DNA of 64,000 bases from an uncultured Anaerolineaceae bacterium (lineage in GTDB: Bacteria; Chloroflexota; Anaerolineae; Anaerolineales; Anaerolineaceae): NCBI GenBank assembly GCA_964535315.1, contig CAZHTS010000003.1, forward strand, positions 1 through 64,000. The letters run 5' to 3'. The notes beneath the pieces are model-generated. The model was not told the origin of the DNA. It did no database searches and saw nothing but the letters and a program-made list of their open reading frames with translations. Both the position numbers and the translations under genes were made by a program. Shown piece by piece: positions 12,510-50,036 of the stretch (its first letter is position 1; every line of letters begins with the position of its first letter).

Positions 12510-12721
12510 GCGTAACAGCCACCACACAAGCCTAAAAATGGCCGCCGGAAGGTTTCTTTCCCGGCGACCGTCAAACGCCTCCACAACCGGCCGATTTTCC
12601 TTCGTAAACCGGGAACGAACCATCGATCATTTCCGTCTATAAAATAGAACCAGGCTGTTTCTGGTTCCATCCGGCGCCCATTCGGATACAATAAAGATAT
12701 ATGGAGAAGGAGGGTCCAGCC

Positions 12722-35846: not shown

Positions 35847-38800
35847 GCCGTTCCTCCCTGCCGTATTGCAATAACATCCGCTTAATCATATCGGCCAGGA
35901 TATACAAATCAACCGGTTTGCTCACATACTCATCTGCGCCAGCTTCCAGACAACGCTGGCGATCCCCAGGTAATTCTAACGCATTCATCAGAATAATGGG
36001 CAAACGCGCCAGTACCTCGTTCATCCGAATCCGACGCACAGCTTCCAGGCCATCAATCCCGGCAATCCGCATGTCCATCAAAATCAGGTTGGGGCGTTCC
36101 TGCCAGGCGCGCTGGATCGCCTCGCTGCCATTATGCGCCAGGATCACCTGATAACCCGAAGCCATCAAAAACTGCTGGTGAATGGCAATACTGGCCTGAT
36201 TTTCGTCTACCAGCAGGATCATTGAACGTCCCGTCACAGGCTCGCGGCTGGGCACCACCACCAACGCCCGGCGCCACAAACGCGCCGTGCCTTTGGGCGA
36301 AACCCGGCGCAACGCATTCCGCAAATCGGGCAACGGCAGGGGCTTGGTAGCATACACGATCACGCCGCCATCCGCATCGGGATAATGCGCTTCTCCGGTC
36401 GCCAGCACCACCACCGGCACCGCAGCCGTCTGCGGATTGCGGCGCAGCTGGCGCACGATGTCCCAATCGGGTGCACTGCCGCCAGGCACATCGATCAAGA
36501 AAATGTCCGGATGCAATTCGGTTGCCTTTTCCACCGCGCCTTCATCGCGCGGGTATAGCGTTGTCTCCATTCCAATCTCATTCAGGAAACGGGTCAGTTG
36601 AATGGTTGAGTCGGGTGAAGCATCGATCTGCAACCCCGAAGACAACATGCTGGAGTGTCCGCCGGGTGGTGGACTCCAGCGCAAGGTCACCGTGAAACGG
36701 CTGCCCTCGCCGGGCTGGCTCTCCACGGCAATGGCCCCATCGTGCAACTGGATCAGGCGATAGGCCAGCACCAACCCCAAACCCGTACCCGGAAACTGGC
36801 GGGCAATGCGGTTATCCAGCTGAATAAACGGCTGGAAGAGATAACGCATACTTTCCGGCGCAATGCCGATGCCCGTATCCCACACGGTAAAATGCACCCG
36901 CCCGGCCGAAATATCCCCGGTCACCCGCAAGCCGATGCGCCCGCCGGGCGGGGTAAATTTCACCGCATTGCTCAACAAGTTGAGCAATATCTGGTTCAGA
37001 CGCAGCGGGTCGGCCTGAATCCAGACCACCAGTGGATCAACCTCCACCTCAACCTGCTGTCCCTTCTGGCGCGCCGCCTGCTCGATCAATTCCAGACAGG
37101 TCTGGCAGACACTTTGCACGGTCAACGTCCCGATCTCGACCTTAAGCTTGCCGGCCTCAAGACTGGAGAAATCAAGGATATCCTCGACCAGTGAGGAAAG
37201 ATGTTTGCTGCTGTTATGGATCAGGTGCAGTTTCTCCGCCTGCAACGCGCTCAGGGCCCCATAGGCCTGCTCTAACAACGCCTCGGCCAGGCTGCTGATC
37301 GAGGTCAGCGGCGTGCGAAATTCATGGTTGATATTGGCGATGAATTTGCTCTTGAGTTCATTGGCCATCTTGAGATCCGCATTGGCAGCGCTCAATTCCT
37401 CTGTGCGCTCCTGTACCCGGCGCGCCAGCCGCGAACGTTCCTCGCGCAGCGCCCGCTCCGCCTGTTTGCGGCGCTCCAACTCCAGGGCAATCTGCTCATT
37501 AATGCGCAGCAATTCCGCCGTACGTTCTTCCACCCGGCCCTCCAGGTCGGCCTTGGCGCTTTCCAACAACTCTTCTGTACGTTTGCGCTCCTCCAACTCG
37601 CTTTGAAGGCGGTGATACAACAGGGCGTTATCCAGTGCAATCGAGGCCAACTGGGCAAAACGCTCAATGATGCGAACGTGCTCGTCGGTCAAAAGATGCT
37701 CGGGGCTGACTTCGCCCAACCCGACCACCCCCGCCACTCGTTGCCCAACCACCAACGGCACCCCCAGGGTCGAATACAACAAAGTGCGCGGGTATTTATC
37801 CGATCTGCCCGGCCAGGTGGTGTAATCGGAAATCAACATACTCTTGCGTTCCCGCAGAATACGGCCTGCCATCCCTTCCCCTGGCCCAAGAGTCAACCCG
37901 ATGAAATTACGGTACACCCCCAGGCCCACTTCGAGCCGCAATATGTCCTGATGCTCGTCATATAAATACAGATAACCGTTCTCACATCCCGCCAGTTGCC
38001 CGGCGCGCGTCATAATATTTTCGAGCAATTCACCCAACTGCAGGCGGCGCATCAGCCCCAGAGAGGTTTCGTGCAAGCTCTCCAGATAGGCGTACTGCGA
38101 ACGCAGTTCTTCCTCGGCCTGCCGGCGGGCCAGCAACCCCCCCAGACTTCCAGCCAGTGTACACGCCGCGGCCACCTCGGCTTCGCTCCAACTGCGGCCG
38201 GCAACGTGCACATCAAACCCCAGGAACCCCCAAAACGCACCACGGATGTTGATGGGAACGGCCAGAAGCGAGACGACCTTACGGCTCAGCAAGGTCGTAC
38301 GTTCATCTTCTGGGAAATCATCAACCGCCCCCATCAGACACTTACCCGTGGCAAGAATCTGATACCAGCGTTCGGGGATCATCATCCCCGGCGCTTCTCT
38401 CAAATTACGGCGCAGCGTTTCGTTGGCCTCTTGCTCGCCCAGCCAATCGAAGTGTAAACGCACCCGCGGCTGGTTATGCGTCTTGTCCGGAACATACTCA
38501 AACAAATAGGCCCGATCTGCTTGCATAGAACGCCCCAGGTCCGCCAGCGCCCGGGTCACCGCCTGCTCATAATCGGCCGTGATCAGCAAATTACTGGCCG
38601 AAAGGGCCAATCCGCTCAACAATTCCTCCTGGCGCCGTAAAGCCGCTTCGGCCTGCTGGCGTACCAGCAATTCTCGCCGGACAGACGCAGACAACGCCAC
38701 CTTGTCAAGCGCCGGTCCTACCGCCGCCGCCACCGAGCGGGCAATACGAATCTCGTCCTCATGAAAAGAACGGGGCTCAAGCGCATCCAAACCCAACGTA

Positions 38801-40278
38801 CCAATCGACTGTCTTCCAGAAAGCAGCGGCACAATTAACAACGAAACGGTGCCGCGATTCTTCGCAACAGCCTGCATATCCTGGGCGCCCGCGTCCAGTT
38901 GGGCATTTGCCAGCACCAACGGCTCCTGGGTGTCCAACACATACCGTGTAGAGGGGTTGTTCTCTAACGGAATACGAAAACCGATCACCGATGGCCGGCC
39001 GGCCTCGCAGTACTCGGCGCGCACGACCAGCTGCTTTCTATCTTCGTCCAGAAGTGTGGCAGCCGCCTGAGGCAGATGCATAAACAAGGCCAGTTCCTTG
39101 CAAACCGTTGTTAGCACCGCTTCGACATCGTTCGATTGTGCTGCTTTTTCGATGACGCGATTGAGCAGCAACGTCTCATCCAGGCGTCGTTGTAAATGTT
39201 CTTCATCCTGAACATGCCGGCGTCTCGCCTCTTGCAAACGCTCCAGAAGGCCATTAACGTGCTCGGTAAAATGCCGCAACTCACCATGAGACGGCAGGGG
39301 TATCCGCTCATTTAAGCCCCCCGACTCATCAATCTGATCCAGCCTGGCGCTCAAACGTAACATGGGCCGGATCACCAATAGCTCCAGCGCGCCAATGATG
39401 ACGGCCACAGACACCAACCCGATAATTAGCAACAACGCCACCCATTGGGCGTGAAGCGAAGGCCAACGGTTGTAAACCGTTCGCGGCATCTCGATTTGCA
39501 CCAGCACGTTCGGCCGCCCCTGGATGTCATCAGCCAGAATCGAACCGACCACGATCTGATCGCCTTTTACCTCCACCAACGGCTCGTCCCGATCAGCCAA
39601 TGTATTCAAGATCGCAGCCATTTCGCTCGTCTGCTGCAACTTGTCCAGGCGCTGGACGGATAAACGATACCCCAATTGCTCGGACAACTGCTCCACATCG
39701 GCCGCCCGCAGATACTTCCCTACCACCAACACGCCCCGGTTCTCCCCGGCCTTATCACTTGGGAGAATTTGCGCCAGGCCCAACACCAGCGGGCCGTTCT
39801 CCTCAAACAAAACCGTGCCCGAAGCCGACTTGCGCTCACCCAGCAAGTGCAAGGGCTGGTAATAGCGCATTTGCTCGATCAGGCGTTCCGGCGGCGCCAC
39901 CACCTGATTGCTTTGATAATCGTACAATCGCCCGGCAAAATATTTTCCCGAGCGGTCATAAAACAACATAAAATTGACCTGCAAGTTTTTCAGCGTCTCA
40001 TCATCCAGGCGGATCAGCAAACGACCCGCAGCCGGCGTGCTTTCAACCATCAATGCATACGTTTCATCCCAAAAAGCATACGAGCGGGCGGTTTGCTCTA
40101 CACCCTTATTAAATCCTTCCAATAAATCCTGGGTACGTTTCAGGGCTTCCCCCACCCGTTCCTGTTCCAACGCAGCATATTCCTGCGCAAAAATTGCAGA
40201 AGACGATAGATATAACACCGGGACCAGGGCGACCAGAATCCCAAACATTGCCCAAAAAGTTCGTTTGCGCAAAGTCAT
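35836..40278 (-). CDS. Giant hybrid sensor histidine kinase (extracytoplasmic CHASE4-like sensor - HAMP - GAF x3 - HisKA - HATPase - REC x2)
   Basis: Signal/TM region, then a periplasmic CHASE-like domain and a second TM (VALLLIIGLVSVAVIIGALELLVI). Multiple GAF-like segments. H-box (NHEFRTPLTSI), HATPase (NLLSNAVKFTPPGGRI...GTGLGLV). Two C-terminal receivers (DIFLIDVPGG...; NLILMDMRIAGIDG). Confidence 0.85.
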   Translation of the reverse strand: MTLRKRTFWAMFGILVALVPVLYLSSSAIFAQEYAALEQERVGEALKRTQDLLEGFNKGVEQTARSYAFWDETYALMVESTPAAGRLLIRLDDETLKNLQVNFMLFYDRSGKYFAGRLYDYQSNQVVAPPERLIEQMRYYQPLHLLGERKSASGTVLFEENGPLVLGLAQILPSDKAGENRGVLVVGKYLRAADVEQLSEQLGYRLSVQRLDKLQQTSEMAAILNTLADRDEPLVEVKGDQIVVGSILADDIQGRPNVLVQIEMPRTVYNRWPSLHAQWVALLLIIGLVSVAVIIGALELLVIRPMLRLSARLDQIDESGGLNERIPLPSHGELRHFTEHVNGLLERLQEARRRHVQDEEHLQRRLDETLLLNRVIEKAAQSNDVEAVLTTVCKELALFMHLPQAAATLLDEDRKQLVVRAEYCEAGRPSVIGFRIPLENNPSTRYVLDTQEPLVLANAQLDAGAQDMQAVAKNRGTVSLLIVPLLSGRQSIGTLGLDALEPRSFHEDEIRIARSVAAAVGPALDKVALSASVRRELLVRQQAEAALRRQEELLSGLALSASNLLITADYEQAVTRALADLGRSMQADRAYLFEYVPDKTHNQPRVRLHFDWLGEQEANETLRRNLREAPGMMIPERWYQILATGKCLMGAVDDFPEDERTTLLSRKVVSLLAVPINIRGAFWGFLGFDVHVAGRSWSEAEVAAACTLAGSLGGLLARRQAEEELRSQYAYLESLHETSLGLMRRLQLGELLENIMTRAGQLAGCENGYLYLYDEHQDILRLEVGLGVYRNFIGLTLGPGEGMAGRILRERKSMLISDYTTWPGRSDKYPRTLLYSTLGVPLVVGQRVAGVVGLGEVSPEHLLTDEHVRIIERFAQLASIALDNALLYHRLQSELEERKRTEELLESAKADLEGRVEERTAELLRINEQIALELERRKQAERALREERSRLARRVQERTEELSAANADLKMANELKSKFIANINHEFRTPLTSISSLAEALLEQAYGALSALQAEKLHLIHNSSKHLSSLVEDILDFSSLEAGKLKVEIGTLTVQSVCQTCLELIEQAARQKGQQVEVEVDPLVVWIQADPLRLNQILLNLLSNAVKFTPPGGRIGLRVTGDISAGRVHFTVWDTGIGIAPESMRYLFQPFIQLDNRIARQFPGTGLGLVLAYRLIQLHDGAIAVESQPGEGSRFTVTLRWSPPPGGHSSMLSSGLQIDASPDSTIQLTRFLNEIGMETTLYPRDEGAVEKATELHPDIFLIDVPGGSAPDWDIVRQLRRNPQTAAVPVVVLATGEAHYPDADGGVIVYATKPLPLPDLRNALRRVSPKGTARLWRRALVVVPSREPVTGRSMILLVDENQASIAIHQQFLMASGYQVILAHNGSEAIQRAWQERPNLILMDMRIAGIDGLEAVRRIRMNEVLARLPIILMNALELPGDRQRCLEAGADEYVSKPVDLYILADMIKRMLLQYGREERRDG

Positions 40279-42412: not shown

Positions 42413-42617
42413 GTCAGCACTCCTTTCCTGGCTGAAAAATCTTTCACGCCTTTAGCATATCCGGCGACTACAAGAATGGCGTTAACAGAATATAGGAAGT
42501 CTATCAACACAGGTCTCGTTCGCAGAGAGGACAGTCCTTTTTGACTTCTCAACAGACTGGCTTATAATCAAAGAGGATCTTCCAATCGCTAATTGCTCTA
42601 TGCTGCAGGAGGCTGTC

Positions 42618-43934
42618 ATGCGCAAACGCTCAATGTCCTTTCTCATGATCGTGATATGGCTGTTATTCGGTATCGTCCAGCCGGTTGCGGCGCAAGGCGC
42701 CACGGCAAAGGCGGTCGTACTCAAAGCCGAAGGCCCGTTGACCCCGGTCATGGTTACATACATCGAGCGTGGCCTGCGCATTGCCGCCGAAGATAATGCC
42801 ACCGTTGTAGTGCTGAAACTCAACACCCCCGGCGGTAGCATCGACCTGATGAACCGTATCGTCCAGAATATTCGCACCAGCAGCGTGCCGGTAGTGGTAT
42901 ATGTCAGCCCCAACGGCGCCATGGCCGCCAGCGCCGGCACGTTGATCACCCTCGCCGGCCATCTGGCCGCCATGTCTCCCGAAACGGCCATCGGTGCCGC
43001 CAGCCCGGTGGGCGGGCAGGGCGAAGATATCGGCGAGACGATGGAAACCAAAGTCAAGGAAATCCTCAAAGCCACCACCCGTTCTCTCACCGAGCGGCGC
43101 GGCCCCCGCGCTACCGAACTGGCCGAACAAAGCATCGACAAGGCTCGCGCCGTTTCTGCCAAAGAAGCCTTAGAAGCAGGCCTGATCGATTACATCGCAA
43201 GCGATCTCAACGATTTATTGAAACAAATCGATGGACAATCGGTGCTGGTAAACGGCCAGACAAAAACCCTGCACACTGCCGGTCTGGAACAATACCCGGT
43301 TGCCAACACGCTGATCGAAGAAATCCTTAATATGCTCACCAACCCCAACATCGTCTTCCTGCTGATGTCGGTCGGGGTGCAGGCCATCTTGATCGAATTA
43401 TCCAGCCCGGGCGGTTGGGTGGCCGGCTTTATCGGCGCCGTCTGTCTGGCGTTGGCCGGCTACGGCCTGGGCATTCTGCCGGTTAACTGGTTTGGCATCG
43501 TTTTTCTGCTCATCGCCTTTGCCCTGTTTGTGCTGGACATCAAAGCGCCCACACATGGCGCCCTGACCACAGCCGGGGCGGCCTGCTTCATCGTCGGCGC
43601 CCTGGTGCTGTTTAACTCGACCCGCACCCCAGGCTTCCCCACCGTTTCGGTGCCGCTGGTCATCGGTGTAGGCATCTTTATCGCCCTGTCGTTCTTTGCC
43701 ATCATGACCATCGCCTTGCGGGCGCAGCGCACCCCCATCCGCACCGGCAAAGAAAGCCTGGCCGGCAGAACCGGCATCGCCCGCGACGACATCAACCCGG
43801 ACGGCAACGTCCAGGTTGCCGCCGAGTTATGGAGCGCCGAACTGGCGCCTGGCTCGCCCCCCATCCACCGCGGCGAGCGGGTGGAAGTGGTCGCAGTGGA
43901 AGGCCTGCGCCTGATTGTACGCAAACAAAACTGA
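42618..43934 (+). CDS. NfeD-like membrane-bound ClpP-class serine protease (long-form NfeD with C-terminal OB-fold)
   Basis: Start at MRKRSMSF (RBS CAGGAGG). Signal peptide and ClpP-like domain (VVLKLNTPGGSIDLMNRIVQ...YVSPNGAMAASAGTLITLAG), then several TM helices and a C-terminal OB-fold (NVQVAAELWSAELAPG...GERVEVVAVEGLRLIV). Confidence 0.8.
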   Translation: MRKRSMSFLMIVIWLLFGIVQPVAAQGATAKAVVLKAEGPLTPVMVTYIERGLRIAAEDNATVVVLKLNTPGGSIDLMNRIVQNIRTSSVPVVVYVSPNGAMAASAGTLITLAGHLAAMSPETAIGAASPVGGQGEDIGETMETKVKEILKATTRSLTERRGPRATELAEQSIDKARAVSAKEALEAGLIDYIASDLNDLLKQIDGQSVLVNGQTKTLHTAGLEQYPVANTLIEEILNMLTNPNIVFLLMSVGVQAILIELSSPGGWVAGFIGAVCLALAGYGLGILPVNWFGIVFLLIAFALFVLDIKAPTHGALTTAGAACFIVGALVLFNSTRTPGFPTVSVPLVIGVGIFIALSFFAIMTIALRAQRTPIRTGKESLAGRTGIARDDINPDGNVQVAAELWSAELAPGSPPIHRGERVEVVAVEGLRLIVRKQN

Positions 43935-43942
43935 GCGCGGGC

Positions 43943-44890
43943 TTATTGCCACAAAGTCTTAAAATGCTCGTCAAAGGCATCCAGCGCCTGGTCGCCGAGC
44001 AAACCACTTTGCATAATCTCGTCCAGCGAGAATAGGTGCTCGTTCTGGCCTGCTTCTCCGGCCTGGCCAGTTTCGCCGGCAGACAGGGGAACGCTCTGCT
44101 CAATAATGGCGGTAAGCTGCGGCAAAATCTGGCGTGTGGCGTACAACACCATCCCTGAACGGACATCCTGCCCAAAGACCACCAACAGGAACAAATCAGA
44201 GGCCAGGTTGGCCGAATAGACGCTGTAGCGACTGCCTTCATGATAATTCAGGCGGAAAGCCTCGCCCTCGCCAATCAGCGAGGCGATCCCAGCGGTGGCG
44301 GCAAAATCTCCGGCCATCAACGCCGCCAGTGCGGCCACGTTGATGTCCTCAATCACCCCCTTGGCATCCACCACATAGCCGCTGCCCTCCACCAGTAAAA
44401 CGCAGCGGGCGGCCGCCTCGGCGCGCAATTCGGCCAGGATACGATCGATCTCGTCCAGCTGCGCCGGCGAGAGCTGGCGCGAGAACACGGCCGGGGCACT
44501 CTCGACCACGGTCGCCGGTTTGTGCCGGCCGCTCTCGCGCGCCACAATCGTCAGCAGTTCTTCGGGCTGGTAGGGCTTAGGCATAAAATCGCTCACGCCA
44601 TGACGCAGCGCCTGGATGACCACATCCGCATCGGCGTGTCCGGTGATCATCACCACCGGCAGTTGTGGCGCCAACCGCTTGATTTCGGCCAACAACTGCA
44701 AACCGTTCATTCCAGGCATTTGCAAATCGGTCAACACCAGATCAAACGACCGGCCGGCCAACTGCTCCAACGCATCCTCGGCAGTTTGCACAGCCTCGAC
44801 TTCATAGCCGGCCCGCGTCAGAATGCGTTGCAAACTGCGGCGCACGCTTTCATCATCATCTACGACCAGGATCGTTGCATTTACACTCAT
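43943..44890 (-). CDS. Response regulator (REC) fused to a roadblock/LC7-like C-terminal domain
   Basis: REC domain (ILVVDDDESVRRSL...DLVLTDLQMPGMNG). The C-terminal ~150 aa (ARCVLLVEGSGYVVDAKGVIEDINVAALAALMAGDFAATAGIA...) resembles MglB/roadblock folds. Confidence 0.6.
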   Translation of the reverse strand: MSVNATILVVDDDESVRRSLQRILTRAGYEVEAVQTAEDALEQLAGRSFDLVLTDLQMPGMNGLQLLAEIKRLAPQLPVVMITGHADADVVIQALRHGVSDFMPKPYQPEELLTIVARESGRHKPATVVESAPAVFSRQLSPAQLDEIDRILAELRAEAAARCVLLVEGSGYVVDAKGVIEDINVAALAALMAGDFAATAGIASLIGEGEAFRLNYHEGSRYSVYSANLASDLFLLVVFGQDVRSGMVLYATRQILPQLTAIIEQSVPLSAGETGQAGEAGQNEHLFSLDEIMQSGLLGDQALDAFDEHFKTLWQ

Positions 44891-44914
44891 GGCGCACCCT
44901 CACATGCAAACAAT

Positions 44915-45673
44915 TTACGCTTTCGGCAATTGATAGACGTCTTCCATCAAATCCAGCCCACACGACAAGCCCTCCGCCCAGGCAATAAAGCGCTGAACGT
45001 GCTCTTTTTTCTTAAACATGGCGCCGTGCTGGGGTGCAATGACGTCGATATCTAGCTGACGCACCATTTTGGCCCACAAACGTAACGCTTTGCCAGAGGC
45101 CATATACCGTTGGTGGAAACCGGTCATATACTGCAAATGATCGTCGAAGTTTTCGACCACCGTATAGGTCTGGCCCAGTGAGGCGCCAAGGTCGCCCGTA
45201 TACAGGATTCTGGATACCGGATCGTACAGCTGGAAATTTCCCGGAGAATGCAGGAAATGGGCCGGCAGCAGCGATAGCCCGCAGCCCGCCAGATCGAGCA
45301 CCATGCCTTCATCGGGCACGGCCTGAATGCGATCCATCACCATTTCGTCCACCCCAAAGTGTGCGATAAAACGCATCCACAGGCGCGAGAGCAGCCCTTC
45401 GGCCTCGGTAATCATCAACCAGCCGTTGGCGGCGGCGATGATATCTGGATCTTGATGAGAAAACAGAATGTACTTCAGGGCGCTGGTAGGCAAGATGGCC
45501 GATAATTCGGCCAGCGCACCCGAATAGACCTTGTGTCCGCCCGGATCGAGCAAGATGGCCTGATCCTTATGAACAATGACATGCTGGTTGGCCTGCACCA
45601 TCTGCCCTGAGGTGAAGTCTTCCAACAAAATATTCTTATGCTCGCCATTATCAAATAAGACCTGCGTCGGCAT
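44915..45673 (-). CDS. Metallo-beta-lactamase (MBL)-fold hydrolase
   Basis: HxHxDH-like variant (ILFSHQDPDIIAAANGW), plus downstream H and D metal ligands (LLPAHFLHSPGNFQLYD). Confidence 0.65.
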   Translation of the reverse strand: MPTQVLFDNGEHKNILLEDFTSGQMVQANQHVIVHKDQAILLDPGGHKVYSGALAELSAILPTSALKYILFSHQDPDIIAAANGWLMITEAEGLLSRLWMRFIAHFGVDEMVMDRIQAVPDEGMVLDLAGCGLSLLPAHFLHSPGNFQLYDPVSRILYTGDLGASLGQTYTVVENFDDHLQYMTGFHQRYMASGKALRLWAKMVRQLDIDVIAPQHGAMFKKKEHVQRFIAWAEGLSCGLDLMEDVYQLPKA

Positions 45674-45692
45674 CGTTTATCTCCTCGTCCAC

Positions 45693-46073
45693 TTAGTTCA
45701 AGATCCCGGCCACTTTTTGCGCCCCTTCGTGCGCCTCAAGAAACGCCATCCCTAAATTGACGTTTTTGCTCGTCAACGCCACAAAAGCAGCGTTCTTCCC
45801 CGCATAAGTAATAATGATGTTGCCTTCCTTACCCTGAATCAGCGTCTGTTGAAATTCACCACCGGCCAGCTGACCAATCGAACGGCTTGACAGATTCAAG
45901 ATACCCGCCGCTACGGCGCCGACCCGCGCCTGATCCAATTTTTGCGGCAGTTCGGCAGCGATCACCAGACCGTCCATACTGATCACAGCCACACCATAAA
46001 TATCGGTAGAATTATCCACCAGGCCGCGCAACGCTTCGGCCAGTTGTTCGCTTCGTTTCTGTGCTCCTGCCAT
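45693..46073 (-). CDS. Roadblock/LC7 (MglB-like) domain protein
   Basis: 126 aa; LVDNSTDIYGVAVISMDGLVIAAELPQKLDQARVGAVAAGILNL... is the canonical roadblock pattern. Confidence 0.75.
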   Translation of the reverse strand: MAGAQKRSEQLAEALRGLVDNSTDIYGVAVISMDGLVIAAELPQKLDQARVGAVAAGILNLSSRSIGQLAGGEFQQTLIQGKEGNIIITYAGKNAAFVALTSKNVNLGMAFLEAHEGAQKVAGILN

Positions 46074-46102
46074 TTCTTACTCCTTTCACCAACGCACCAT
46101 TC

Positions 46103-46834
46103 CTATCCTTTTGCTTCAGATAGCACCTGTTCCAGGATTTCCACACCCTGCCGGGCCTCGAAAAATGTCATCCCCAGGTTAACCGCCGGGTCGGCCAACG
46201 CCACCAGAATGGCGTCGACGCCCACCGGGGTGAGAACCACGCTGCCAATCGCCCCCTGTACCAGGGTCTGTTGTAAAGCGCCGCAATCCAACTGCCCGAC
46301 TGAGCGCGCCGACAGGTTGAGGATACCCGCCGCCACCGCCCCCACCCGCGCTCGATCCAGCGTCGCGGGCAGTTCGGCCGCCAGCAACGCCCCATCCCGG
46401 CGCAACAATACCAGCCCCACAAAACTGGAACGCTCGCTCAGGCGGTGCAGCGCTGCACCCAACGGGTCTTCTACCACCGGCGGCGGAGCATCGACCAGCA
46501 TGCCGCCCTCGTCCACCCGGCGCAACCCTTCCATCACCAGCGCCGACCAGGGCAAATGAATGCTGCGCTGCGGCGCCGCCGCCCCTTGCTCCACGGCGAA
46601 AGAACCATCCGGCCAGCGCAGCAGGTGATAAACCGCCTCTTCACCCACAATCTCCCCCAACTGGGCATGCACCACTTCGCCTTCGGCAAAGTAGACCACC
46701 AGTTCCTCACCCTGGCGCCAGGCGTACAAGCGGGCCCGCACCCCCGACTGGCAGTGCAGTTGGATCAAATCCGCAATACTGATGTCGGTCAGATCACCTT
46801 TTAGCGCCATATCTTCTCCATTTTCAAGCGGCAC
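46103..46834 (-). CDS. DUF4388-like N-terminal domain fused to a roadblock/LC7 domain
   Basis: N-terminal LKGDLTDISIADLIQLHCQSGVRARLYAWRQGEELVVYFAEGEVVHAQ resembles DUF4388. C-terminal LVLLRRDGALLAAELPATLDRARVGAVAAGILNL matches roadblock. Confidence 0.7.
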   Translation of the reverse strand: MPLENGEDMALKGDLTDISIADLIQLHCQSGVRARLYAWRQGEELVVYFAEGEVVHAQLGEIVGEEAVYHLLRWPDGSFAVEQGAAAPQRSIHLPWSALVMEGLRRVDEGGMLVDAPPPVVEDPLGAALHRLSERSSFVGLVLLRRDGALLAAELPATLDRARVGAVAAGILNLSARSVGQLDCGALQQTLVQGAIGSVVLTPVGVDAILVALADPAVNLGMTFFEARQGVEILEQVLSEAKG

Positions 46835-47198
46835 GATCCCGCTGCGCCCAAACGCGTTGGATCTGGCGGATGGCCTGGTTGGTCGCCCGGCGATATGCCG
46901 TCTGCGCCGCCAGTTTCACCACCAAAATCAACGTGCGTTCGCCGGCGGCAAAGGCGCGGCACACCAACCGCTGGCCGTGTTCGTCAAACATCACGATCTC
47001 GTCCATCTCACCCAGGCCGACGTGGGCGCTGGCCTGTTGGGCAACCCGTTGTACCCGCGCCGCAATCGCCGCCGGCGCTTCGGCCTGTTCTCCGCCGGTA
47101 GACGCCGCCAGCGGGAAGCCCGAGGCATCGGTCAACACGACTGCCAGAAAACCATGTTCGACTCCGACCTGTTGTACGATCTCCTGAAGCTGTTTCAT
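46824..47198 (-). CDS. Roadblock/LC7 (MglB-like) domain protein
   Basis: 124 aa; GFLAVVLTDASGFPLAASTGGEQAEAPAAIAARVQRV.... 11-nt overlap with the downstream gene and 4-nt overlap with the upstream GTPase gene. Confidence 0.7.
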   Translation of the reverse strand: MKQLQEIVQQVGVEHGFLAVVLTDASGFPLAASTGGEQAEAPAAIAARVQRVAQQASAHVGLGEMDEIVMFDEHGQRLVCRAFAAGERTLILVVKLAAQTAYRRATNQAIRQIQRVWAQRDRAA

Positions 47199-47821
47199 TC
47201 TCGTACTCCTGTTTGCGCATCGCGCGCCGCGCTCAATTTACGTTGGACGCTGGACAACACCAGCCGCATGGCAGCGTGAAGCGTTTCAGGGACACCCTCA
47301 CCGGTGGCCGCGATGGCATGATAAGCCGGGTATTGCGCCAGACCGAGCGCCTGCTGTAATTCCACCACCGGCAGCACACCGGGTAAATCGCGTTTGTTAT
47401 ACTGAATTACCGCCGGGAATTCAGGCAAATGCTGCCCCATCTTCGCCAGATGTTCATTTAAGTCGTTCCAGGATGCGCGGTTATCTTCCAATCGCTCCGC
47501 CTGTGAATCGACCACAAAAACCACACCATCTGCCCGGCGCAATACCGCCTGGCGGGTCGCTTCGTAATACACCTGACCGGGCACAGTATACAGGCCAAAC
47601 TTGGGCTTGAGGCCGCCGATCATGCCGATTTCGAGCTGTAAGAAATCAAAAAAGATGGTGCGGTCTTCGTGAGTATTGAGCGTAAACAACTCACTGCGCG
47701 TTTTGGCCGCCGTCATGGCGTGAATGCGCTCCAGGTTGGTCGTCTTGCCACTCAACGCCGCGCCATAATACACAATGCTGACGTTCAATTCACGGGTTTT
47801 CCAGTTAATAAACATGTACAC
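47195..47821 (-). CDS. MglA-like small Ras-family GTPase
   Basis: P-loop VYYGAALSGKTTNL, switch II TVPGQ, specificity motif YNKRDLP. Its size and placement upstream of roadblock genes are typical of MglA/CvnD-type GTPases. Confidence 0.8.
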   Translation of the reverse strand: MYMFINWKTRELNVSIVYYGAALSGKTTNLERIHAMTAAKTRSELFTLNTHEDRTIFFDFLQLEIGMIGGLKPKFGLYTVPGQVYYEATRQAVLRRADGVVFVVDSQAERLEDNRASWNDLNEHLAKMGQHLPEFPAVIQYNKRDLPGVLPVVELQQALGLAQYPAYHAIAATGEGVPETLHAAMRLVLSSVQRKLSAARDAQTGVRE

Positions 47822-47838
47822 ACACCTCGCCTGGTAGC

Positions 47839-48999
47839 TTATGAATACACAGGAATTTGCAATGTAAAAGCCGTTCCCTCGCCGACCCGGCTTTCTACAC
47901 TTAATTGCCCACCGTGATCCTGAGCAATACTATAGCAAATACTCAAACCCAGCCCGGTACCGCGTTCCCCTTTGGTGGTAAAGAATGGCTCAAAGATGCG
48001 CTCCAGCAAATCGGCAGGGATACCGGCCCCGGTGTCAGCTACCCGGGCTTTGACAAAACAATCGTCAGCCCAGGTGCTCAGGGTAAGGCTGCCCCCACCC
48101 GACATGGCGTCCTGAGCGTTGATGATCAGGTTCATAAAAATTTCGCCCATCTGTTCCGGCGAGGCCATTACGACCGGCAGATCCTCGGCCAGCGAACGGT
48201 GTACGCGAATATGTCGTTTTTGCAGCTCTTTACCGGTCAGAGATAATACCTGCTGGATCACCTGGTTGAGCACGATAGGCCGGCGCTCCTTGCAGGGCGG
48301 TTTGGAAAAATCGCGCAACTGCTGCACCAGTTTGGCAATAGCGTGGATTTGTGTCTCCATGATGTGTAAATCTTCTTGCACCTCGGCCGTCTGTGGCAGG
48401 TCGGACTTGAGCAAATAGACGTAATTCAACAGCCCGCTCAACGGGTTGTTGATCTCATGCGCCAACGAGGCCGCCAGACGCCCTAACGAAGATAGCTTTT
48501 CGGCATGCCGCAGCTTGCTGTGCGCCTGTTCGAGTTGCAGAGTGCGCTCGACCACCTTTTTTTCCAACACCTCGTTTAAACCGGCAAGTTCGTCTGTGAT
48601 CACTTTCAAACGCAGAGCGGCGCGCGTGCGCATTAACAACTCGGCGTTTTCCAACGGCAGCCCTAAGAACTCGTCCGCTCCGGCGTTGAGCGCCGCCGAA
48701 ATATTTTCGGGCCCGGCCTGATCCAGCATCAGGATGGGGATAAAAGGCCACGCCTCGTTGGCCTTCACCTGTCGAGCGGTCTCGTATCCAGAAATGGTCG
48801 GTAAATGGGCCTTGAGCAAAATCAGATCCGGCGGGCGGGCTGCAATCGTCTCCAGTGCGGCTTCCCCACTCGCCGCACTGCGCACCGCATACCCCGCCGA
48901 TTGCAAAACAAGACGCACCTTGCGAACAAAGGCTACGTCAGCATCCACTACCAGAATGTTGGCAAACAAAGGACCCAGTTTCATCGCGACCCGTTTCAA
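47839..48999 (-). CDS. Hybrid histidine kinase with an N-terminal degenerate receiver domain (REC*-HisKA-HATPase)
   Basis: The receiver-like N-terminus has K in place of the phospho-acceptor Asp (PDLILLKAHLPTISGYE). H-box LAASLAHEINNPLSGL; HATPase NLIINAQDAMSGGG...GTGLGLSICY. Confidence 0.8.
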   Translation of the reverse strand: MKRVAMKLGPLFANILVVDADVAFVRKVRLVLQSAGYAVRSAASGEAALETIAARPPDLILLKAHLPTISGYETARQVKANEAWPFIPILMLDQAGPENISAALNAGADEFLGLPLENAELLMRTRAALRLKVITDELAGLNEVLEKKVVERTLQLEQAHSKLRHAEKLSSLGRLAASLAHEINNPLSGLLNYVYLLKSDLPQTAEVQEDLHIMETQIHAIAKLVQQLRDFSKPPCKERRPIVLNQVIQQVLSLTGKELQKRHIRVHRSLAEDLPVVMASPEQMGEIFMNLIINAQDAMSGGGSLTLSTWADDCFVKARVADTGAGIPADLLERIFEPFFTTKGERGTGLGLSICYSIAQDHGGQLSVESRVGEGTAFTLQIPVYS

Positions 49000-49091
49000 C
49001 CGACAAAAAACAACCCATTAAAACATTATTTATTGAAGCACAAGATCAGATGAACGTCAATCATCCTTTGATAATATTTTACATTAAAATT

Positions 49092-49119
49092 TTACGTATT
49101 CGCCATGTGACGGTATAAT
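49092..49119 (+). promoter_or_regulatory. Sigma70-like promoter (-35 TTACGT, 16-bp spacer, -10 TATAAT) for the 49140 gene
   Basis: Sits in an AT-rich intergenic region; -10 TATAAT at 49114-49119; RBS AAGGAGA lies 6 nt upstream of the ATG at 49140. Confidence 0.45.
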
Positions 49120-49139: not shown

Positions 49140-50036
49140 ATGCCCCATCCGTCGTGGAAACACCGCTGCCCGACACGCAACGGTGAGTGGGTTTTTGGCC
49201 CACAACATTGCCCGGATTGCGGTCAAATCAGCGAAATAAAAGTATGGCGACGCAGCATGTTGCAGCGCATTGCTCTGTATCGCCAACTCACCGGCCTGCC
49301 GCCTTATGGCCCGCACTTACGTTTCCTCCCTCCACTCACCCATCCATGCGAACAATGCGACGGCGAGGGTCTGGTCACCACCAGCGACGGCCAGTGGCGA
49401 GATTGCCCGTATTGTAACGGCTACGGGAATCTGATCAGCCGCACCCCAGAGGAAATGGAACGAATCCATCGTTGGGCGCAACGGCGCCAGTCTGAAGCAC
49501 GTACCCGGCCGCCAGACGCCCCCGACCTGCTGCTTGGACGCATCCCCTATACCTTCAACCCGTTGCAAACCAATTCCCCTGAGGGCTTCTTTTACCAGAT
49601 CGCTGCTCTCATTCGTGATCACGAGCAAAACCACGTCCGCAACCAGCGCATCGGCCTGCTCCTGCTGGCCTGTAATGACGAGCACTGGGATGCTTTCATT
49701 TACCTGATCGAGCAATGGGAGAAGGCCGGGTTTGGCCTGGATGTAGACGCGGGCAGCATCCTGTTATTAGGGAAGCAGCCCGGCGCAGGATTGATCGCCA
49801 GTCTGACACCTGCCCTGTCCAGCCTGAACCTGAATTATGTTGGCCTGCAACAAATGGCCTTCCCACGCGCCGTCATTCACCGCCTGCAAACCGCCATCGA
49901 CCAGGCGCTCGGTCTGCCCCACGGTCAATATCAGAGCTACGATATCCTCCTGCTGCGGAGTTTCAATCGCACCCAGGCCCGCGCCCTGCTCAAGGCGCTC
50001 ATCACCGCCGCCAGCACACAACTGGCGCTCAACTAA
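49140..50036 (+). CDS. Hypothetical protein with three zinc-ribbon-like CxxC pairs
   Basis: CPTRNGEWVFGPQHCPDCGQ, CEQCDGEG and CPYCNGYGN; the C-terminal ~180 aa has no recognisable motifs. Good promoter and RBS. Confidence 0.6.
   Translation: MPHPSWKHRCPTRNGEWVFGPQHCPDCGQISEIKVWRRSMLQRIALYRQLTGLPPYGPHLRFLPPLTHPCEQCDGEGLVTTSDGQWRDCPYCNGYGNLISRTPEEMERIHRWAQRRQSEARTRPPDAPDLLLGRIPYTFNPLQTNSPEGFFYQIAALIRDHEQNHVRNQRIGLLLLACNDEHWDAFIYLIEQWEKAGFGLDVDAGSILLLGKQPGAGLIASLTPALSSLNLNYVGLQQMAFPRAVIHRLQTAIDQALGLPHGQYQSYDILLLRSFNRTQARALLKALITAASTQLALN

What the first reader, a model, noticed from the sequence alone, without database searches (positions are those of the whole stretch)
43943..48999. MglA-like GTPase with roadblock x4 / DUF4388 / MBL module embedded between two receiver-containing signalling proteins, one with a degenerate receiver
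A compact co-directional operon with 4-11 nt overlaps encodes, in order: a hybrid kinase whose N-terminal receiver has Lys instead of the phospho-acceptor Asp (LILLKAHLP); a small Ras-like GTPase (MglA/CvnD-like); a roadblock protein; a DUF4388-roadblock fusion; another roadblock protein; an MBL-fold hydrolase; and a REC-roadblock fusion. Roadblock/MglB proteins are GAPs and GEFs for MglA-type GTPases. Four roadblock domains, plus one physically fused to a bona fide receiver, suggests a GTPase switch whose GAP or GEF activity is controlled by phosphorylation. The arrangement resembles, but is more elaborate than, actinobacterial 'conservons' and the myxobacterial polarity module.
Basis: partly seen in the sequence, partly recalled or inferred. 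Interest (0 to 1): 0.55.

Follow-up and report, generated by a model that had tools for sequence, protein, structure and literature searches.

The report
Oxygen-sensor-linked MglA polarity switch operon
A seven-gene operon, conserved in Anaerolineae (Chloroflexota), joins a Ras-like polarity GTPase (MglA) to a two-component system whose response regulator is fused to the MglA-inactivating protein MglB and to a di-iron oxygen/iron sensor (ODP), which suggests that these bacteria steer cell polarity or movement by oxygen without a chemoreceptor.

Summary
Window 43943-48999 (minus strand) is a tight seven-gene operon: pseudo-receiver histidine kinase, Group-1 MglA, three roadblock proteins (one fused to PATAN/DUF4388), an MBL-fold protein, and a receiver-roadblock fusion.

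There are two corrections.
- The "MBL hydrolase" is an orthologue of the oxygen-binding di-iron protein ODP (226 bits to T. maritima ODP). All metal-binding motifs are invariant. It is a sensor, not a generic hydrolase.
- Only the receiver-fused roadblock is a true MglB (62 bits to M. xanthus MglB; Foldseek TM 0.84). The other three are CvnB/Asgard-like or divergent roadblocks.

The cassette is conserved in about 29 Chloroflexota species genomes. Most carry an extra protoglobin gene next to ODP. All four REC-MglB homologues picked independently of ODP sit in the same operon.

Outside Chloroflexota, ODP relatives are preceded by a roadblock gene in 34 of 48 loci. About 18 of these also carry REC-PATAN and a ParA/MinD-like ATPase instead of MglA. 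Only 1 of 80 loci has a chemoreceptor gene nearby.

Best reading (inferred): O2/Fe sensing by ODP is passed through roadblock adaptors to the kinase. The kinase phosphorylates REC-MglB, which tunes GAP activity on MglA. This is a new variant of known kinds. REC-MglB fusions and PATAN neighbours were noted before; I found no report of the ODP-roadblock link.

The parts
47839..48999 (-). Soluble histidine kinase: N-terminal pseudo-receiver (aa 15-123), HisKA (aa 172-233), HATPase_c (aa 281-384). No transmembrane or ligand-binding sensor domain was detected.
   Evidence: Pfam: Response_reg 62 bits, HisKA 49 bits, HATPase_c 86 bits. The H-box His181 is invariant in 24 of 24 orthologues.
48811..48813 (-). 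Codon for Lys63, at the position of the receiver's phospho-acceptor Asp (degenerate receiver).
   Evidence: At this column the 24 orthologues have A 11, D 7, G 2, S 2, E 1, K 1. The T87-equivalent is D and the K109-equivalent is L in the window protein.
47195..47821 (-). Group-1 MglA small GTPase. It has the P-loop GAALSGKT, the intrinsic Arg finger in EDRT, TVPGQ (Thr in place of the DxxG Asp) and NKRD.
   Evidence: 206 bits, E 3e-60 to M. xanthus MglA (5ymx, 6h17) and 178 bits to T. thermophilus MglA (3t12_A). The motifs can be read in that alignment.
46824..47198 (-). Robl1: a divergent single-domain roadblock protein, translationally coupled to mglA by an ATGA overlap.
   Evidence: Pfam Robl_LC7 25.9 bits. 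AF2 pLDDT 86.9, pTM 0.82, with alpha-beta-beta-alpha-beta-beta-beta-alpha topology. Foldseek finds Asgard Roadblock3 (9jue) and MglB (6hjm, 1j3w) at TM 0.76-0.79. Junction sequence.
46103..46834 (-). PATAN (DUF4388, aa 12-109) fused to a CvnB/Asgard-type roadblock domain (aa about 118-243). The likely true start is the ATG at 46810, preceded by GGAG.
   Evidence: Pfam DUF4388 82 bits and Robl_LC7 42 bits. PDB best hits are 7f8m (49.5 bits), 9jue and CvnB5 (3leq); MglB is not matched up to E = 1. JGI calls the gene as 235 aa. Sequence.
45693..46073 (-). Robl3: a stand-alone CvnB/Asgard-type roadblock directly upstream of ODP. It is a paralogue (49% identity) of the roadblock domain of the PATAN fusion, and it belongs to the clade of ODP-adjacent roadblocks seen in many phyla.
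   Evidence: Pfam 62 bits. PDB hits are 7f8m (58 bits), 9jue and 3leq, with MglB only at E about 0.5. Paralogy. Tree. Adjacency statistics.
44915..45673 (-). ODP, the oxygen-binding di-iron protein (MBL fold). The metal-binding motifs are H73-Q-D75-P-D77, H139/H142, D161 and Q215-H216.
   Evidence: Pfam PF19583 236 bits. 226 bits to T. maritima ODP (6qrq) and 207 bits to T. denticola ODP (6qnm). The motif residues are invariant in 81 of 81 aligned relatives.
43943..44890 (-). REC-MglB fusion. It has a canonical receiver (aa 1-122, acceptor Asp55), a disordered linker (aa 123-140), an MglB-type roadblock domain (aa 142-264), a disordered stretch (aa 265-288) and C-terminal helices (aa 289-314).
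   Evidence: Pfam Response_reg 119.5 bits. The C-terminal half gives 62 bits, E 7e-16 to M. xanthus MglB and 37 bits to T. thermophilus MglB. AF2 pLDDT 85. Foldseek top hit is MglB 6hjm, TMt 0.84, rmsd 2.3 A. D11, D12, D55, T83 and K105 are conserved in 27 of 27 orthologues.
44726..44728 (-). Codon for Asp55, the predicted phospho-acceptor of the REC-MglB fusion.
   Evidence: Invariant in 27 of 27 orthologues and an invariant column in alignment A1.

Best explanation
This is a self-contained signalling operon of Anaerolineae. It couples a gas/redox sensor to the MglA polarity switch through a two-component phosphorelay.

Shown by the tools (component identities):
- A soluble HisKA-type kinase whose only N-terminal domain is a phosphorylation-dead pseudo-receiver.
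- A Group-1 MglA.
- The cognate MglB-type GAP domain fused behind a canonical receiver.
- Three further roadblock domains, one of them fused to PATAN.
- An ODP di-iron protein with all metal-binding motifs intact.

Inferred signal flow:
1. ODP binds O2 (and senses Fe(II)/redox). In most relatives a protoglobin also takes part.
2. ODP's state is read by its conserved roadblock partner, which is Robl3 and/or the roadblock half of PATAN-Robl.
3. This alters the phospho-state of the kinase. The possible routes are docking on its pseudo-receiver, or, as published for ODP and CheA, destabilising the phospho-His.
4. The kinase phosphorylates Asp55 of REC-MglB.
5. Phosphorylation changes MglB dimer geometry, localisation or access to MglA. 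This raises or lowers GAP activity and so sets the MglA-GTP level.
6. MglA-GTP, together with the PATAN domain, directs the polarity or activity of a surface-motility or other polar machine. [quoted passage not shown]

The net effect would be an aerotaxis-like or redox-dependent reversal or polarity response that needs no chemoreceptor array.
For: Component identities:
-.

Operon integrity:
- Junctions range from a 4-nt overlap to gaps of at most 29 nt. There is no credible internal terminator, and the neighbouring genes are on the opposite strand.

Co-inheritance:
- The order HK-MglA-Robl-PATAN:Robl-[Robl3 and/or protoglobin]-ODP-REC:MglB recurs in about 29 Chloroflexota species genomes. The flanking genes are not conserved.
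- All four REC-MglB homologues chosen without reference to ODP (43-52% identity) lie in the same operon with ODP immediately upstream.

Kinase and regulator look like a working pair:
- The H-box His is invariant in 24 of 24 orthologues, and the receiver catalytic residues are conserved in 27 of 27. The kinase's own receiver has lost its Asp in 17 of the 24 aligned sequences, window included.

MglB competence:
- The helix LAALMAGDFAATAGIASLIGE aligns with LASLTAGNVAAMGGLAKLIGE of M. xanthus MglB. The small residues at the A64/G68-equivalent positions are kept (the numbering is from my own count).
- The protein also has a C-terminal helical extension after a disordered stretch.

Sensing theme:
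- A protoglobin (126 bits) lies next to ODP in 23 of the 29 Chloroflexota loci.
- ODP acts as an O2/Fe sensor for chemotaxis in T. denticola (PMC7666581). My own recollection of Muok et al. 2019 PNAS is that iron-peroxo ODP destabilises CheA-P.

Roadblock as ODP partner:
- In 34 of 48 non-Chloroflexota ODP loci a roadblock gene ends less than 300 bp upstream of ODP. In Gammaproteobacteria this is a stand-alone two-gene cassette.
- These roadblocks and the Chloroflexota ones are sister clades.

Precedent for gas sensor plus roadblock:
- The globin-Roadblock/LC7 fusion HGbRL (PMC4476040).

PATAN output:
- The PATAN domain of PixE binds PilB1 and PilC and reverses phototaxis (bioRxiv 10.1101/2021.06.11.447907).
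- PATAN genes near mglA/mglB were noted by Wuichet and Sogaard-Andersen 2014 (PMC4316618).
Against: - No step of the signal flow has been tested. Everything beyond domain identity and co-inheritance is inference from gene neighbourhood.
- ODP's only characterised partners are an MCP and CheA, not a HisKA kinase or a roadblock.
- In Gammaproteobacteria the Robl-ODP pair has no kinase, receiver or GTPase nearby. ODP-roadblock signalling therefore need not pass through a kinase.
- The AF2 model gives no fixed REC/MglB orientation (pTM 0.51), so no autoinhibition mechanism can be read from it.
- The window variant lacks the protoglobin present in most relatives.
- No pilus or gliding genes are seen in the 64-kb window, and many cultured Anaerolineae are described as non-motile (my own knowledge). 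The output is the weakest link.
Confidence: 0.5

Rival explanations
1. The operon is a conservon-like regulatory complex that controls development, division or stress physiology of the filament rather than motility or polarity. Kinase, roadblocks and GTPase form a nucleotide- and phosphorylation-dependent complex as in Streptomyces Cvn9. ODP reports redox state to it.
For: - Kinase, roadblock and small GTPase share one operon, as in conservons (PMC4316618).
- Two of the roadblocks are closest to CvnB5 (3leq) and Asgard roadblocks rather than to MglB.
- No motility genes are present in the window.
- In one relative the operon lies about 2.4 kb from minCDE and ftsW/rodA.
- In other phyla the same Robl-ODP-REC-PATAN set is joined to a ParA/MinD-like ATPase.
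Against: - The GTPase is a Group-1 MglA, with about 206 bits to M. xanthus MglA, an intrinsic Arg finger and TVPGQ. It is not a Group-2 CvnD.
- There is no CvnC/DUF742 gene, and the kinase is not a membrane HAMP kinase.
- A genuine MglB is present.
- PATAN is experimentally linked to the pilus motor.
Confidence: 0.2
2. ODP is not the input sensor. It is an enzyme or a protective component, for example an O2/NO-scavenging di-iron protein or a phosphatase-like effector, that is co-expressed with or regulated by the MglA module. The real stimulus reaches the kinase by another route.
For: - ODP is related to flavodiiron O2/NO reductases. There is a weak NCBIfam match to flavorubredoxin, and the relationship is described in PMC7785958.
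- In one relative a rubrerythrin gene follows the operon, and OsmC, AhpC and nitroreductase genes lie upstream.
- In another relative a COX1 gene lies upstream.
Against: - ODP lacks a flavodoxin domain. Only the 252-aa MBL core is present.
- It has the ODP-specific ligand set, including the motif-5 Gln.
- Its fixed position between roadblock and REC-MglB across about 30 operons, with a sensor-type protoglobin beside it, fits a signalling role.
- The characterised orthologues are sensors.
Confidence: 0.12
3. Two functionally separate units merely share a transcript. One is a Robl-ODP sensor cassette with its own unknown output. The other is a kinase/REC-MglB/MglA module whose stimulus is unrelated to ODP. 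Alternatively, the REC of REC-MglB is fed by a kinase encoded elsewhere.
For: - Robl-ODP exists on its own in Gammaproteobacteria.
- The window encodes several other hybrid kinases.
Against: - Strict co-inheritance: 4 of 4 independently chosen REC-MglB homologues have ODP immediately upstream.
- ODP sits between genes of the MglA module rather than at an end of the operon.
- In other phyla Robl-ODP again travels with a kinase, a REC and PATAN.
Confidence: 0.13

Closest known systems
Myxococcus xanthus / Thermus thermophilus MglA-MglB polarity module (with RomR-RomX, MglC, RomY and FrzS, steered by the Frz chemosensory system)
   Same: - Group-1 MglA with an intrinsic Arg finger and TVPGQ.
- MglB-type roadblock GAP domain with the conserved interface helix and a C-terminal helical extension.
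- Extra roadblock paralogues (compare MglC), receiver and pseudo-receiver proteins (compare RomR, FrzS) and PATAN proteins take part in the network.
   Different: - Here the receiver is covalently fused to MglB.
- The kinase is a HisKA kinase inside the operon, not a CheA.
- No RomR/RomX-like gene is in the operon.
- Gene order is mglA first with mglB last, and four genes lie between them.
- ODP, and in relatives a protoglobin, is part of the operon.
Actinobacterial conservon (CvnA kinase, CvnB roadblock, CvnC DUF742, CvnD GTPase)
   Same: - A histidine kinase, roadblock protein(s) and an MglA-family GTPase share one operon.
- Robl3 and the PATAN-fused roadblock match CvnB5 (3leq) at 45 and 23 bits.
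   Different: - The GTPase is Group 1, not Group 2.
- There is no CvnC.
- The kinase is soluble with a pseudo-receiver, not a membrane HAMP kinase with an LPxR tail.
- A response-regulator receiver is present, whereas conservons have none.
- ODP and PATAN are present.
ODP-chemoreceptor O2/Fe(II) sensing in Treponema denticola and Thermotoga maritima
   Same: - An orthologous ODP (226 and 207 bits) with the same metal-binding motifs.
- It is encoded within a signalling operon that contains a histidine kinase.
   Different: - No MCP or CheA is present. An MCP gene was found in only 1 of the 80 closest ODP loci and none in the window.
- The conserved neighbour is a roadblock protein.
- The downstream switch is a small GTPase (or a ParA/MinD-like ATPase in other phyla), not the flagellar motor.
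HGbRL globin-Roadblock/LC7 fusion of Methylacidiphilum (putative globin-coupled sensor)
   Same: A gas-binding sensor domain is physically coupled to a roadblock domain, with an MglA/MglB-like pair in the same genome. Relatives of this operon carry a protoglobin next to the roadblock and ODP genes.
   Different: - There the sensor is a haem globin fused in one polypeptide, and it is restricted to one genus.
- Here the sensor is a separate di-iron protein, accompanied by a kinase, a REC-MglB and PATAN.
PatA-type PATAN-REC response regulators (PixG, PixE, LsiR of Synechocystis)
   Same: A PATAN/DUF4388 domain combined with two-component signalling. PATAN is the output domain that contacts PilB1 and PilC.
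   Different: In the window, PATAN is fused to a roadblock domain instead of a receiver. The REC-PATAN form occurs in the Desulfobacterota-type Robl-ODP clusters.

Membership tests
MglA family, Group 1 (Wuichet and Sogaard-Andersen 2014) | Single-domain small GTPase with a P-loop GxxxxGKT and NKxD | tested here: met
   GAALSGKT and NKRD are visible in the alignment with 5ymx_A. The protein is 208 aa.
MglA family, Group 1 (Wuichet and Sogaard-Andersen 2014) | Thr in place of the DxxG Asp (TVPGQ), a catalytic Gln and an intrinsic Arg finger | tested here: met
   LYTVPGQVYY aligns with LYTVPGQVFY. EDRTIFFDF aligns with ETDRTLFFDF.
MglA family, Group 1 (Wuichet and Sogaard-Andersen 2014) | Genomic coupling to an MglB/roadblock gene (within four genes in that study) | tested here: met
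   Robl1 overlaps the mglA stop codon. Two more roadblock genes follow. The true MglB domain is in the fifth gene downstream.
MglB (roadblock GAP of MglA) | Roadblock/LC7 fold with specific sequence similarity to characterised MglB | tested here: met
   62 bits, E 7e-16 to M. xanthus MglB and 37 bits to T. thermophilus MglB. Foldseek TMt 0.84, rmsd 2.3 A. This applies only to aa 142-264 of the REC fusion. Robl3 matches MglB only at E about 0.5, and Robl1 and PATAN-Robl give no MglB match up to E = 1.
MglB (roadblock GAP of MglA) | Small residues on the MglA-contacting helix (A64/G68 of M. xanthus MglB) | tested here: met
   GDFAATAGIA aligns with GNVAAMGGLA. The residue numbering comes from my own count of the chain.
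MglB (roadblock GAP of MglA) | Stimulates GTP hydrolysis by MglA | not testable with these tools
   Needs a GTPase assay.
ODP (oxygen-binding di-iron protein, PF19583) | Match above the Pfam gathering score and close similarity to the solved ODPs | tested here: met
   236 bits against a cut-off of 27.2. 226 bits to 6qrq and 207 bits to 6qnm.
ODP (oxygen-binding di-iron protein, PF19583) | ODP-type metal ligand set: HxDxD in motif 2 without the third His, a motif-3 His, a motif-4 Asp and Gln-His in motif 5 | tested here: met
   H73, D75, D77, H139/H142, D161, Q215 and H216 are invariant in 81 of 81 relatives. The Gln replacement is described in PMC7785958. The exact ligand list of the original paper could not be read.
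ODP (oxygen-binding di-iron protein, PF19583) | Genetic coupling to a sensor-less cytoplasmic chemoreceptor | tested here: not met
   No MCP signalling domain is in the window, and only 1 of 80 related loci has one. This is a feature of the described system, not of the protein family.
ODP (oxygen-binding di-iron protein, PF19583) | Reversible O2 binding as a peroxo-di-iron species | not testable with these tools
   Needs spectroscopy on the purified protein.
Actinobacterial conservon | Four-gene set CvnA (membrane HAMP kinase with an LPxR tail), CvnB, CvnC (DUF742) and CvnD (Group-2 MglA) | tested here: not met
   None of the seven proteins gives a DUF742 or HAMP hit. The GTPase is Group 1. 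The kinase has a pseudo-receiver N-terminus. The operon is not filed as a conservon.
Two-component system (kinase plus response regulator) | Kinase with a conserved H-box His and ATP-binding domain, and a receiver with DD, D, T/S and K signature residues | tested here: met
   HisKA and HATPase_c hits. His181 is invariant. In the REC-MglB receiver D12, D55 and K105 are invariant in 27 of 27 orthologues, D11 is D in 26 and E in 1, and T83 is T in 25 and S in 2.
Two-component system (kinase plus response regulator) | Phosphotransfer between this kinase and this receiver | not testable with these tools
   Inferred from co-inheritance only.
Hybrid histidine kinase | A receiver domain with a phosphorylatable Asp in the same polypeptide | tested here: not met
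   Lys63 is at the acceptor position, and the position is non-Asp in 17 of the 24 aligned sequences, window included. The protein is better described as a pseudo-receiver kinase than as a hybrid kinase.
PATAN / DUF4388 | Match to PF14332 above the gathering score | tested here: met
   82.3 bits against a cut-off of 25, covering aa 12-109. JGI's precomputed call is PatA_N.

The most novel reading that the evidence does not exclude
Roadblock-ODP is a widespread, so far undescribed sensory cassette. In it a roadblock protein, not a chemoreceptor, transduces the O2/Fe state of a di-iron protein to P-loop polarity or positioning switches. The switch is MglA via a phosphorylatable REC-MglB in Anaerolineae, and a ParA/MinD-like ATPase via REC-PATAN in Desulfobacterota, Nitrospirota, Acidobacteriota and Myxococcota. 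In Gammaproteobacteria the cassette stands alone. This would be a chemoreceptor-independent route for oxygen-guided polarity and motility. It would also be the first natural case in which MglB GAP activity is set directly by two-component phosphorylation.
Probability: 0.35. Interest if true: 0.78.

Novelty: new variant of a known kind. Interest (0 to 1): 0.62.

Why it matters
How the MglA/MglB polarity switch receives environmental signals is known in detail only for Myxococcus, where a Che-like system acts indirectly through several response regulators. Here the wiring is much shorter and can be tested with purified proteins. One kinase, one receiver fused to the GAP itself, and one candidate O2/Fe sensor sit in a single operon.

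If the inferred flow is right, it gives three things.
- A minimal system for asking how phosphorylation controls a roadblock-type GAP. This is relevant to the Ragulator/LAMTOR and MglB families in general.
- A second, non-chemotactic signalling context for ODP, whose only described partners are a chemoreceptor and CheA.
- A function for the many "orphan" bacterial roadblock proteins, as adaptors for a metalloprotein sensor.

It also suggests that abundant but poorly understood filamentous Anaerolineae, found in sludge, sediments and mats, respond behaviourally to oxygen gradients.

Tried and rejected
1. Conservon membership was rejected. There is no DUF742/CvnC, no HAMP or membrane kinase, and the GTPase is Group 1 rather than Group 2.
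2. "Generic MBL hydrolase" was rejected in favour of ODP.
3. "All four roadblocks are MglB-like GAP/GEFs" was rejected. Only the REC-fused domain matches MglB. Local hhalign shows that Robl1 is only distantly related to the others.
4. Chemotaxis-type ODP coupling was rejected. An MCP probe written from memory of E. coli Tsr hit 1 of 80 loci and nothing in the window.
5. Internal terminators or promoters: only weak in-gene matches at roughly the background rate (14 found against 7.1 +/- 2.5 expected, none intergenic). Not considered real.
6. NCBIfam gave no specific family for any of the small proteins.
7. Conservation of flanking genes (NfeD, DnaK, the 298-aa ORF and others) next to the operon elsewhere: none found. 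They are not part of the system.
8. The original ODP paper (Muok et al. 2019, PNAS) could not be opened by DOI, PubMed id or PMC id. Statements about CheA-P destabilisation rest on my memory of its abstract.
9. Literature searches for roadblock with ODP or di-iron found nothing. Searches for MglA in Chloroflexota found nothing relevant.
10. The AF2 model of REC-MglB gave no defined inter-domain packing (pTM 0.51), so no structural autoinhibition model is offered.
11. Not done: a complex prediction (ODP-roadblock, MglA-MglB) is not possible with the tools. No search was made for type IV pilus genes in the host genomes.

Full report
**1. What is there**

Between 43943 and 48999, seven ORFs lie head to tail on the minus strand. 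They are bounded by a convergent NfeD-type gene (42600-43934, +) and a divergent 298-aa ORF (49140-50036, +).

The junctions are as follows:
- Kinase to MglA: a 17-nt gap.
- MglA to Robl1: an ATGA overlap of 4 nt.
- Robl1 to PATAN-Robl: an 11-nt overlap with the GTG start. More probably it is a 13-nt gap, using the ATG at 46810, which is preceded by GGAG and is the start JGI called.
- The remaining three junctions: gaps of 29, 19 and 24 nt.

A consensus scan finds no intergenic terminator or minus-strand promoter inside the block. The hits are weak stems inside coding sequence.

The window comes from JGI metagenome 3300022666, contig Ga0248168_1000463. The nearest genomes are Chloroflexota/Anaerolineae MAGs.

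**2. The parts**

*Kinase (47839-48999).* It has Response_reg, HisKA and HATPase_c domains.
- The receiver has Lys63 where the phospho-acceptor Asp should be.
- The Thr and Lys signature positions are also lost.
- Among 24 aligned sequences (window included) the acceptor column reads A 11, D 7, G 2, S 2, E 1, K 1. The H-box His is invariant.

It is therefore an active-looking soluble kinase whose only N-terminal domain is a pseudo-receiver. It is not a true hybrid kinase.

*GTPase (47195-47821).* It scores 206 bits against M. xanthus MglA and 178 bits against T. thermophilus MglA. It carries GxxxxGKT, the intrinsic Arg (EDRT), TVPGQ and NKRD. These are the Group-1 MglA hallmarks as defined in PMC4316618.

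*Roadblock domains.* All four are real, but they are of different kinds.
- The C-terminal half of 43943-44890 is a genuine MglB.
  - It scores 62 bits (E 7e-16) to M. xanthus MglB and 37 bits to T. thermophilus MglB.
  - The MglA-contacting helix is conserved.
  - An AF2 model (pLDDT 85) shows REC 1-122, a disordered linker, a roadblock fold at 142-264, a disordered stretch, and C-terminal helices at 289-314.
  - The best structural matches are MglB chains (TMt 0.84, rmsd 2.3 A).
  - Its receiver is canonical. D12, D55 and K105 are invariant in 27 of 27 orthologues. D11 is D in 26 and E in 1, and T83 is T or S.
- Robl3 (45693-46073) and the roadblock half of the PATAN fusion are 49% identical paralogues. 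They match Asgard roadblocks (7f8m, 9jue, 7yh1) and CvnB5 (3leq), not MglB.
- Robl1 (46824-47198) is very divergent in sequence.
  - Pfam gives 25.9 bits.
  - Local hhalign gives E 4e-4 to the PATAN-Robl roadblock family.
  - It nonetheless folds confidently as a roadblock. AF2 gives pLDDT 86.9 and pTM 0.82, and Foldseek gives TM 0.76-0.79.

*PATAN domain.* The N-terminal half of 46103-46834 is PATAN/DUF4388 (82 bits).

*The "MBL hydrolase" (44915-45673).* It is an orthologue of the oxygen-binding di-iron protein ODP.
- PF19583 scores 236 bits.
- It scores 226 bits to the T. maritima structure and 207 bits to the T. denticola structure.
- The ODP-type metal motifs (H73-x-D75-x-D77, H139/H142, D161, Q215-H216) are invariant in 81 aligned relatives.
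- ODP is described as the oxygen sensor for T. denticola chemotaxis, genetically coupled to a sensor-less MCP (PMC7666581).
- Its unusual ligand set, with a motif-5 Gln, is noted in PMC7785958.

**3. Comparative evidence**

*Search from ODP.* A scan of one genome per species with ODP as the query returned 80 loci. I mapped the seven window proteins onto them by tblastn and blastp.
- The 29 best loci are all Chloroflexota. Wherever the contig is long enough, they show the same order: HK-MglA-Robl1-PATAN:Robl-[Robl3 and/or protoglobin]-ODP-REC:MglB.
- The genes flanking the window operon are not conserved elsewhere.

*Protoglobin.* In 23 of the 29 Chloroflexota loci a 180-aa protoglobin (PF11563, 126 bits) lies directly upstream of ODP.
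- The window has no globin.
- The window, L001, L003 and L019 instead have the stand-alone Robl3 there.
- L002 has both genes (L026 appears to as well), and L008 and L017 have neither.

*Search from REC-MglB.* The reverse test does not depend on ODP. A protein search with REC-MglB found 73 full-length clusters and then a sharp fall to receiver-only matches. The only source names are "response regulator" or "CheY-like". Four of these, including the most distant (43-52% identity), were looked up on their contigs. All four lie in the same operon with ODP immediately upstream.

*Beyond Chloroflexota.*
- The next-closest ODPs (58-64% identity) come from Gammaproteobacteria, Desulfobacterota, Myxococcota, Acidobacteriota, Nitrospirota, Calditrichia and Aquificae.
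- None has MglA within 10 kb.
- In 34 of the 48 loci with enough upstream sequence, a roadblock gene ends less than 300 bp upstream of ODP on the same strand.
- In about 18 loci, for example Geomonas L038 and Desulfobacterales L069, the cluster continues with an optional HD-GYP-type protein, a PAS kinase, a REC-PATAN response regulator and a ParA/MinD-like ATPase.
- In Gammaproteobacteria, Robl-ODP is a stand-alone pair between unrelated genes.
- In Aquificae, ODP follows an unassigned 147-aa ORF in the dcw cluster.
- A rough NJ tree puts all Chloroflexota ODP-linked roadblock domains, whether PATAN-fused or stand-alone, in one clade. That clade is sister to the ODP-adjacent roadblocks of other phyla.
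- An MCP signalling-domain probe hit only 1 of the 80 loci.

*Conclusion.* The recurrent set is roadblock + ODP, usually with a kinase, a receiver and PATAN. The fusion partners are shuffled: PATAN:Robl and REC:MglB in Chloroflexota, and Robl and REC:PATAN elsewhere. The P-loop switch is exchanged between MglA and a ParA/MinD-like ATPase.

**4. How it most likely works**

Shown: the component identities, intact catalytic and ligand residues, tight operon organisation and strict co-inheritance.

Inferred:
1. ODP, with the protoglobin in most relatives, senses O2, Fe(II) or redox state.
2. Its conserved roadblock neighbour reads that state.
3. The kinase's phospho-state changes. The pseudo-receiver is a plausible docking site. 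From my memory of Muok et al. 2019, ODP in its peroxo state destabilises CheA-P. I could not open that paper.
4. The kinase phosphorylates Asp55 of REC-MglB.
5. This tunes GAP activity, dimerisation or localisation of the MglB domain, and so the MglA-GTP level.
6. MglA-GTP and the PATAN domain act on a polar machine. The PATAN domain of PixE binds PilB1 and PilC and is sufficient to reverse phototaxis in Synechocystis. PATAN genes near mglA/mglB were noted in PMC4316618.

The output is the least secure step. No pilus or gliding genes are in the window.

Rivals:
- A conservon-like regulator of division or development. One relative has minCDE and ftsW nearby, and the sister clusters use a ParA/MinD-like ATPase.
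- ODP as an enzyme or protective protein rather than the input.
- Two separate modules sharing one transcript.

**5. Comparison with what is known**

The system works like a shortened, hard-wired version of the myxobacterial polarity module.
- It passes the membership tests for Group-1 MglA, MglB (for one domain), ODP, PATAN and a two-component pair.
- It fails the tests for a conservon and for the MCP-coupled ODP system.
- The kinase fails the test for a hybrid kinase.

Earlier work had noted some of these features.
- Five Response_reg + MglB-like fusions are mentioned in the methods of PMC4316618.
- The same paper, and Makarova et al. 2006, note PATAN genes near mglA/mglB.
- A globin-roadblock fusion has been described (PMC4476040).

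Searches of the held library found no paper that links roadblock proteins or MglA with ODP. The library is incomplete, so this is absence of evidence only.

**6. Verdict**

It is a new variant of known kinds built from known domains, with an undescribed and experimentally tractable wiring. Interest 0.62.

Noticed in passing
L005 9320-9862 (also L002, L004, L006, L007, L009-L016, L018, L020-L029; L083 4065-4607; L085 5674-6219): A 180-aa protoglobin (PF11563, 126 bits) sits directly upstream of ODP in 23 of the 29 Chloroflexota loci. The window variant lacks it. The window, L001, L003 and L019 have the stand-alone Robl3 in that position. L002 has both genes.
   Followed up: yes
L030-L036, L042, L046, L050 (Gammaproteobacteria); e.g. 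L033 9196-9564 and 9569-10330: A stand-alone two-gene roadblock-ODP cassette (11-nt gap) lies between unrelated genes (a Sel1-repeat protein and an M1 peptidase). No GTPase, kinase or receiver is within 10 kb. Its function and partner are unknown.
   Followed up: partly
L038 9514-15627; L069 8367-12516; also L039, L045, L051, L052, L054, L055, L057-L059, L063, L072, L076: A second conserved architecture occurs in Desulfobacterota, Geomonas, Nitrospirota, Acidobacteriota and Myxococcota. Its order is Robl-ODP-[HD-GYP-type HD_5]-[PAS kinase]-REC:PATAN-ParA/MinD-like ATPase. It contains no MglA.
   Followed up: partly
L074 9510-9953 (also L061, L075, L078, L080; Aquificae): ODP is preceded by a conserved ORF of 147-159 aa with no Pfam match. 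The pair is embedded between surA-like and mraW-ftsL-PBP (dcw) genes. I did not determine whether the small ORF is a very divergent roadblock.
   Followed up: no
L044 9156-9908, L066 2655-3407, L067 4868-5620, L073 10800-11552, L019: Some loci carry a second ORF of about 250 aa next to ODP, which looks like a tandem ODP paralogue. L019 shows two ODP hits plus a 1440-aa REC-containing protein in place of REC-MglB.
   Followed up: no
L004 and L009 (upstream and downstream of the main operon): A second MglA-Robl1-like gene pair lies upstream of the kinase, and a second PATAN-Robl gene lies downstream of REC-MglB. This points to local duplication of module parts.
   Followed up: no
window 34377-40278 (-): Two large signalling genes overlap by 11 nt. 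One is a 1480-aa CHASE4-HAMP-GAFx3-HisKA-HATPase-REC hybrid kinase. It is followed by a 489-aa REC-PAS-HisKA-HATPase kinase. They look like a separate phosphorelay 3.7 kb from the operon, with dnaK and nfeD between.
   Followed up: partly
window 1284-3263 (+): A 659-aa REC-HisKA protein with two HATPase_c matches and a weak HPTransfase-like match. This is an unusual kinase architecture.
   Followed up: no
window 9123-18832 (+): There are two very large putative surface or secreted proteins. One is a 1128-aa FG-GAP repeat/Calx-beta protein. The other is a 2043-aa bacterial alpha-2-macroglobulin.
   Followed up: no
window 27856-32974 (-): An SbcC/Rad50-like ATPase with a zinc hook (853 aa) and a calcineurin-like phosphoesterase (SbcD-like, 412 aa) are separated by a CNNM/CorC-type transporter gene.
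   Followed up: no
window 1-64000: GC skew is negative in almost every 2-kb bin (cumulative -4.0 over the window). GC content dips to 0.47 at 2001-4000, against about 0.58 elsewhere.
   Followed up: no
window 49140-50036 (+): The divergently transcribed 298-aa ORF has only a weak DnaJ-type CXXCXGXG zinc-finger match. A sigma-70-like promoter match (10 of 12) lies at 49091-49119. The ORF is not conserved next to the operon in relatives.
   Followed up: partly
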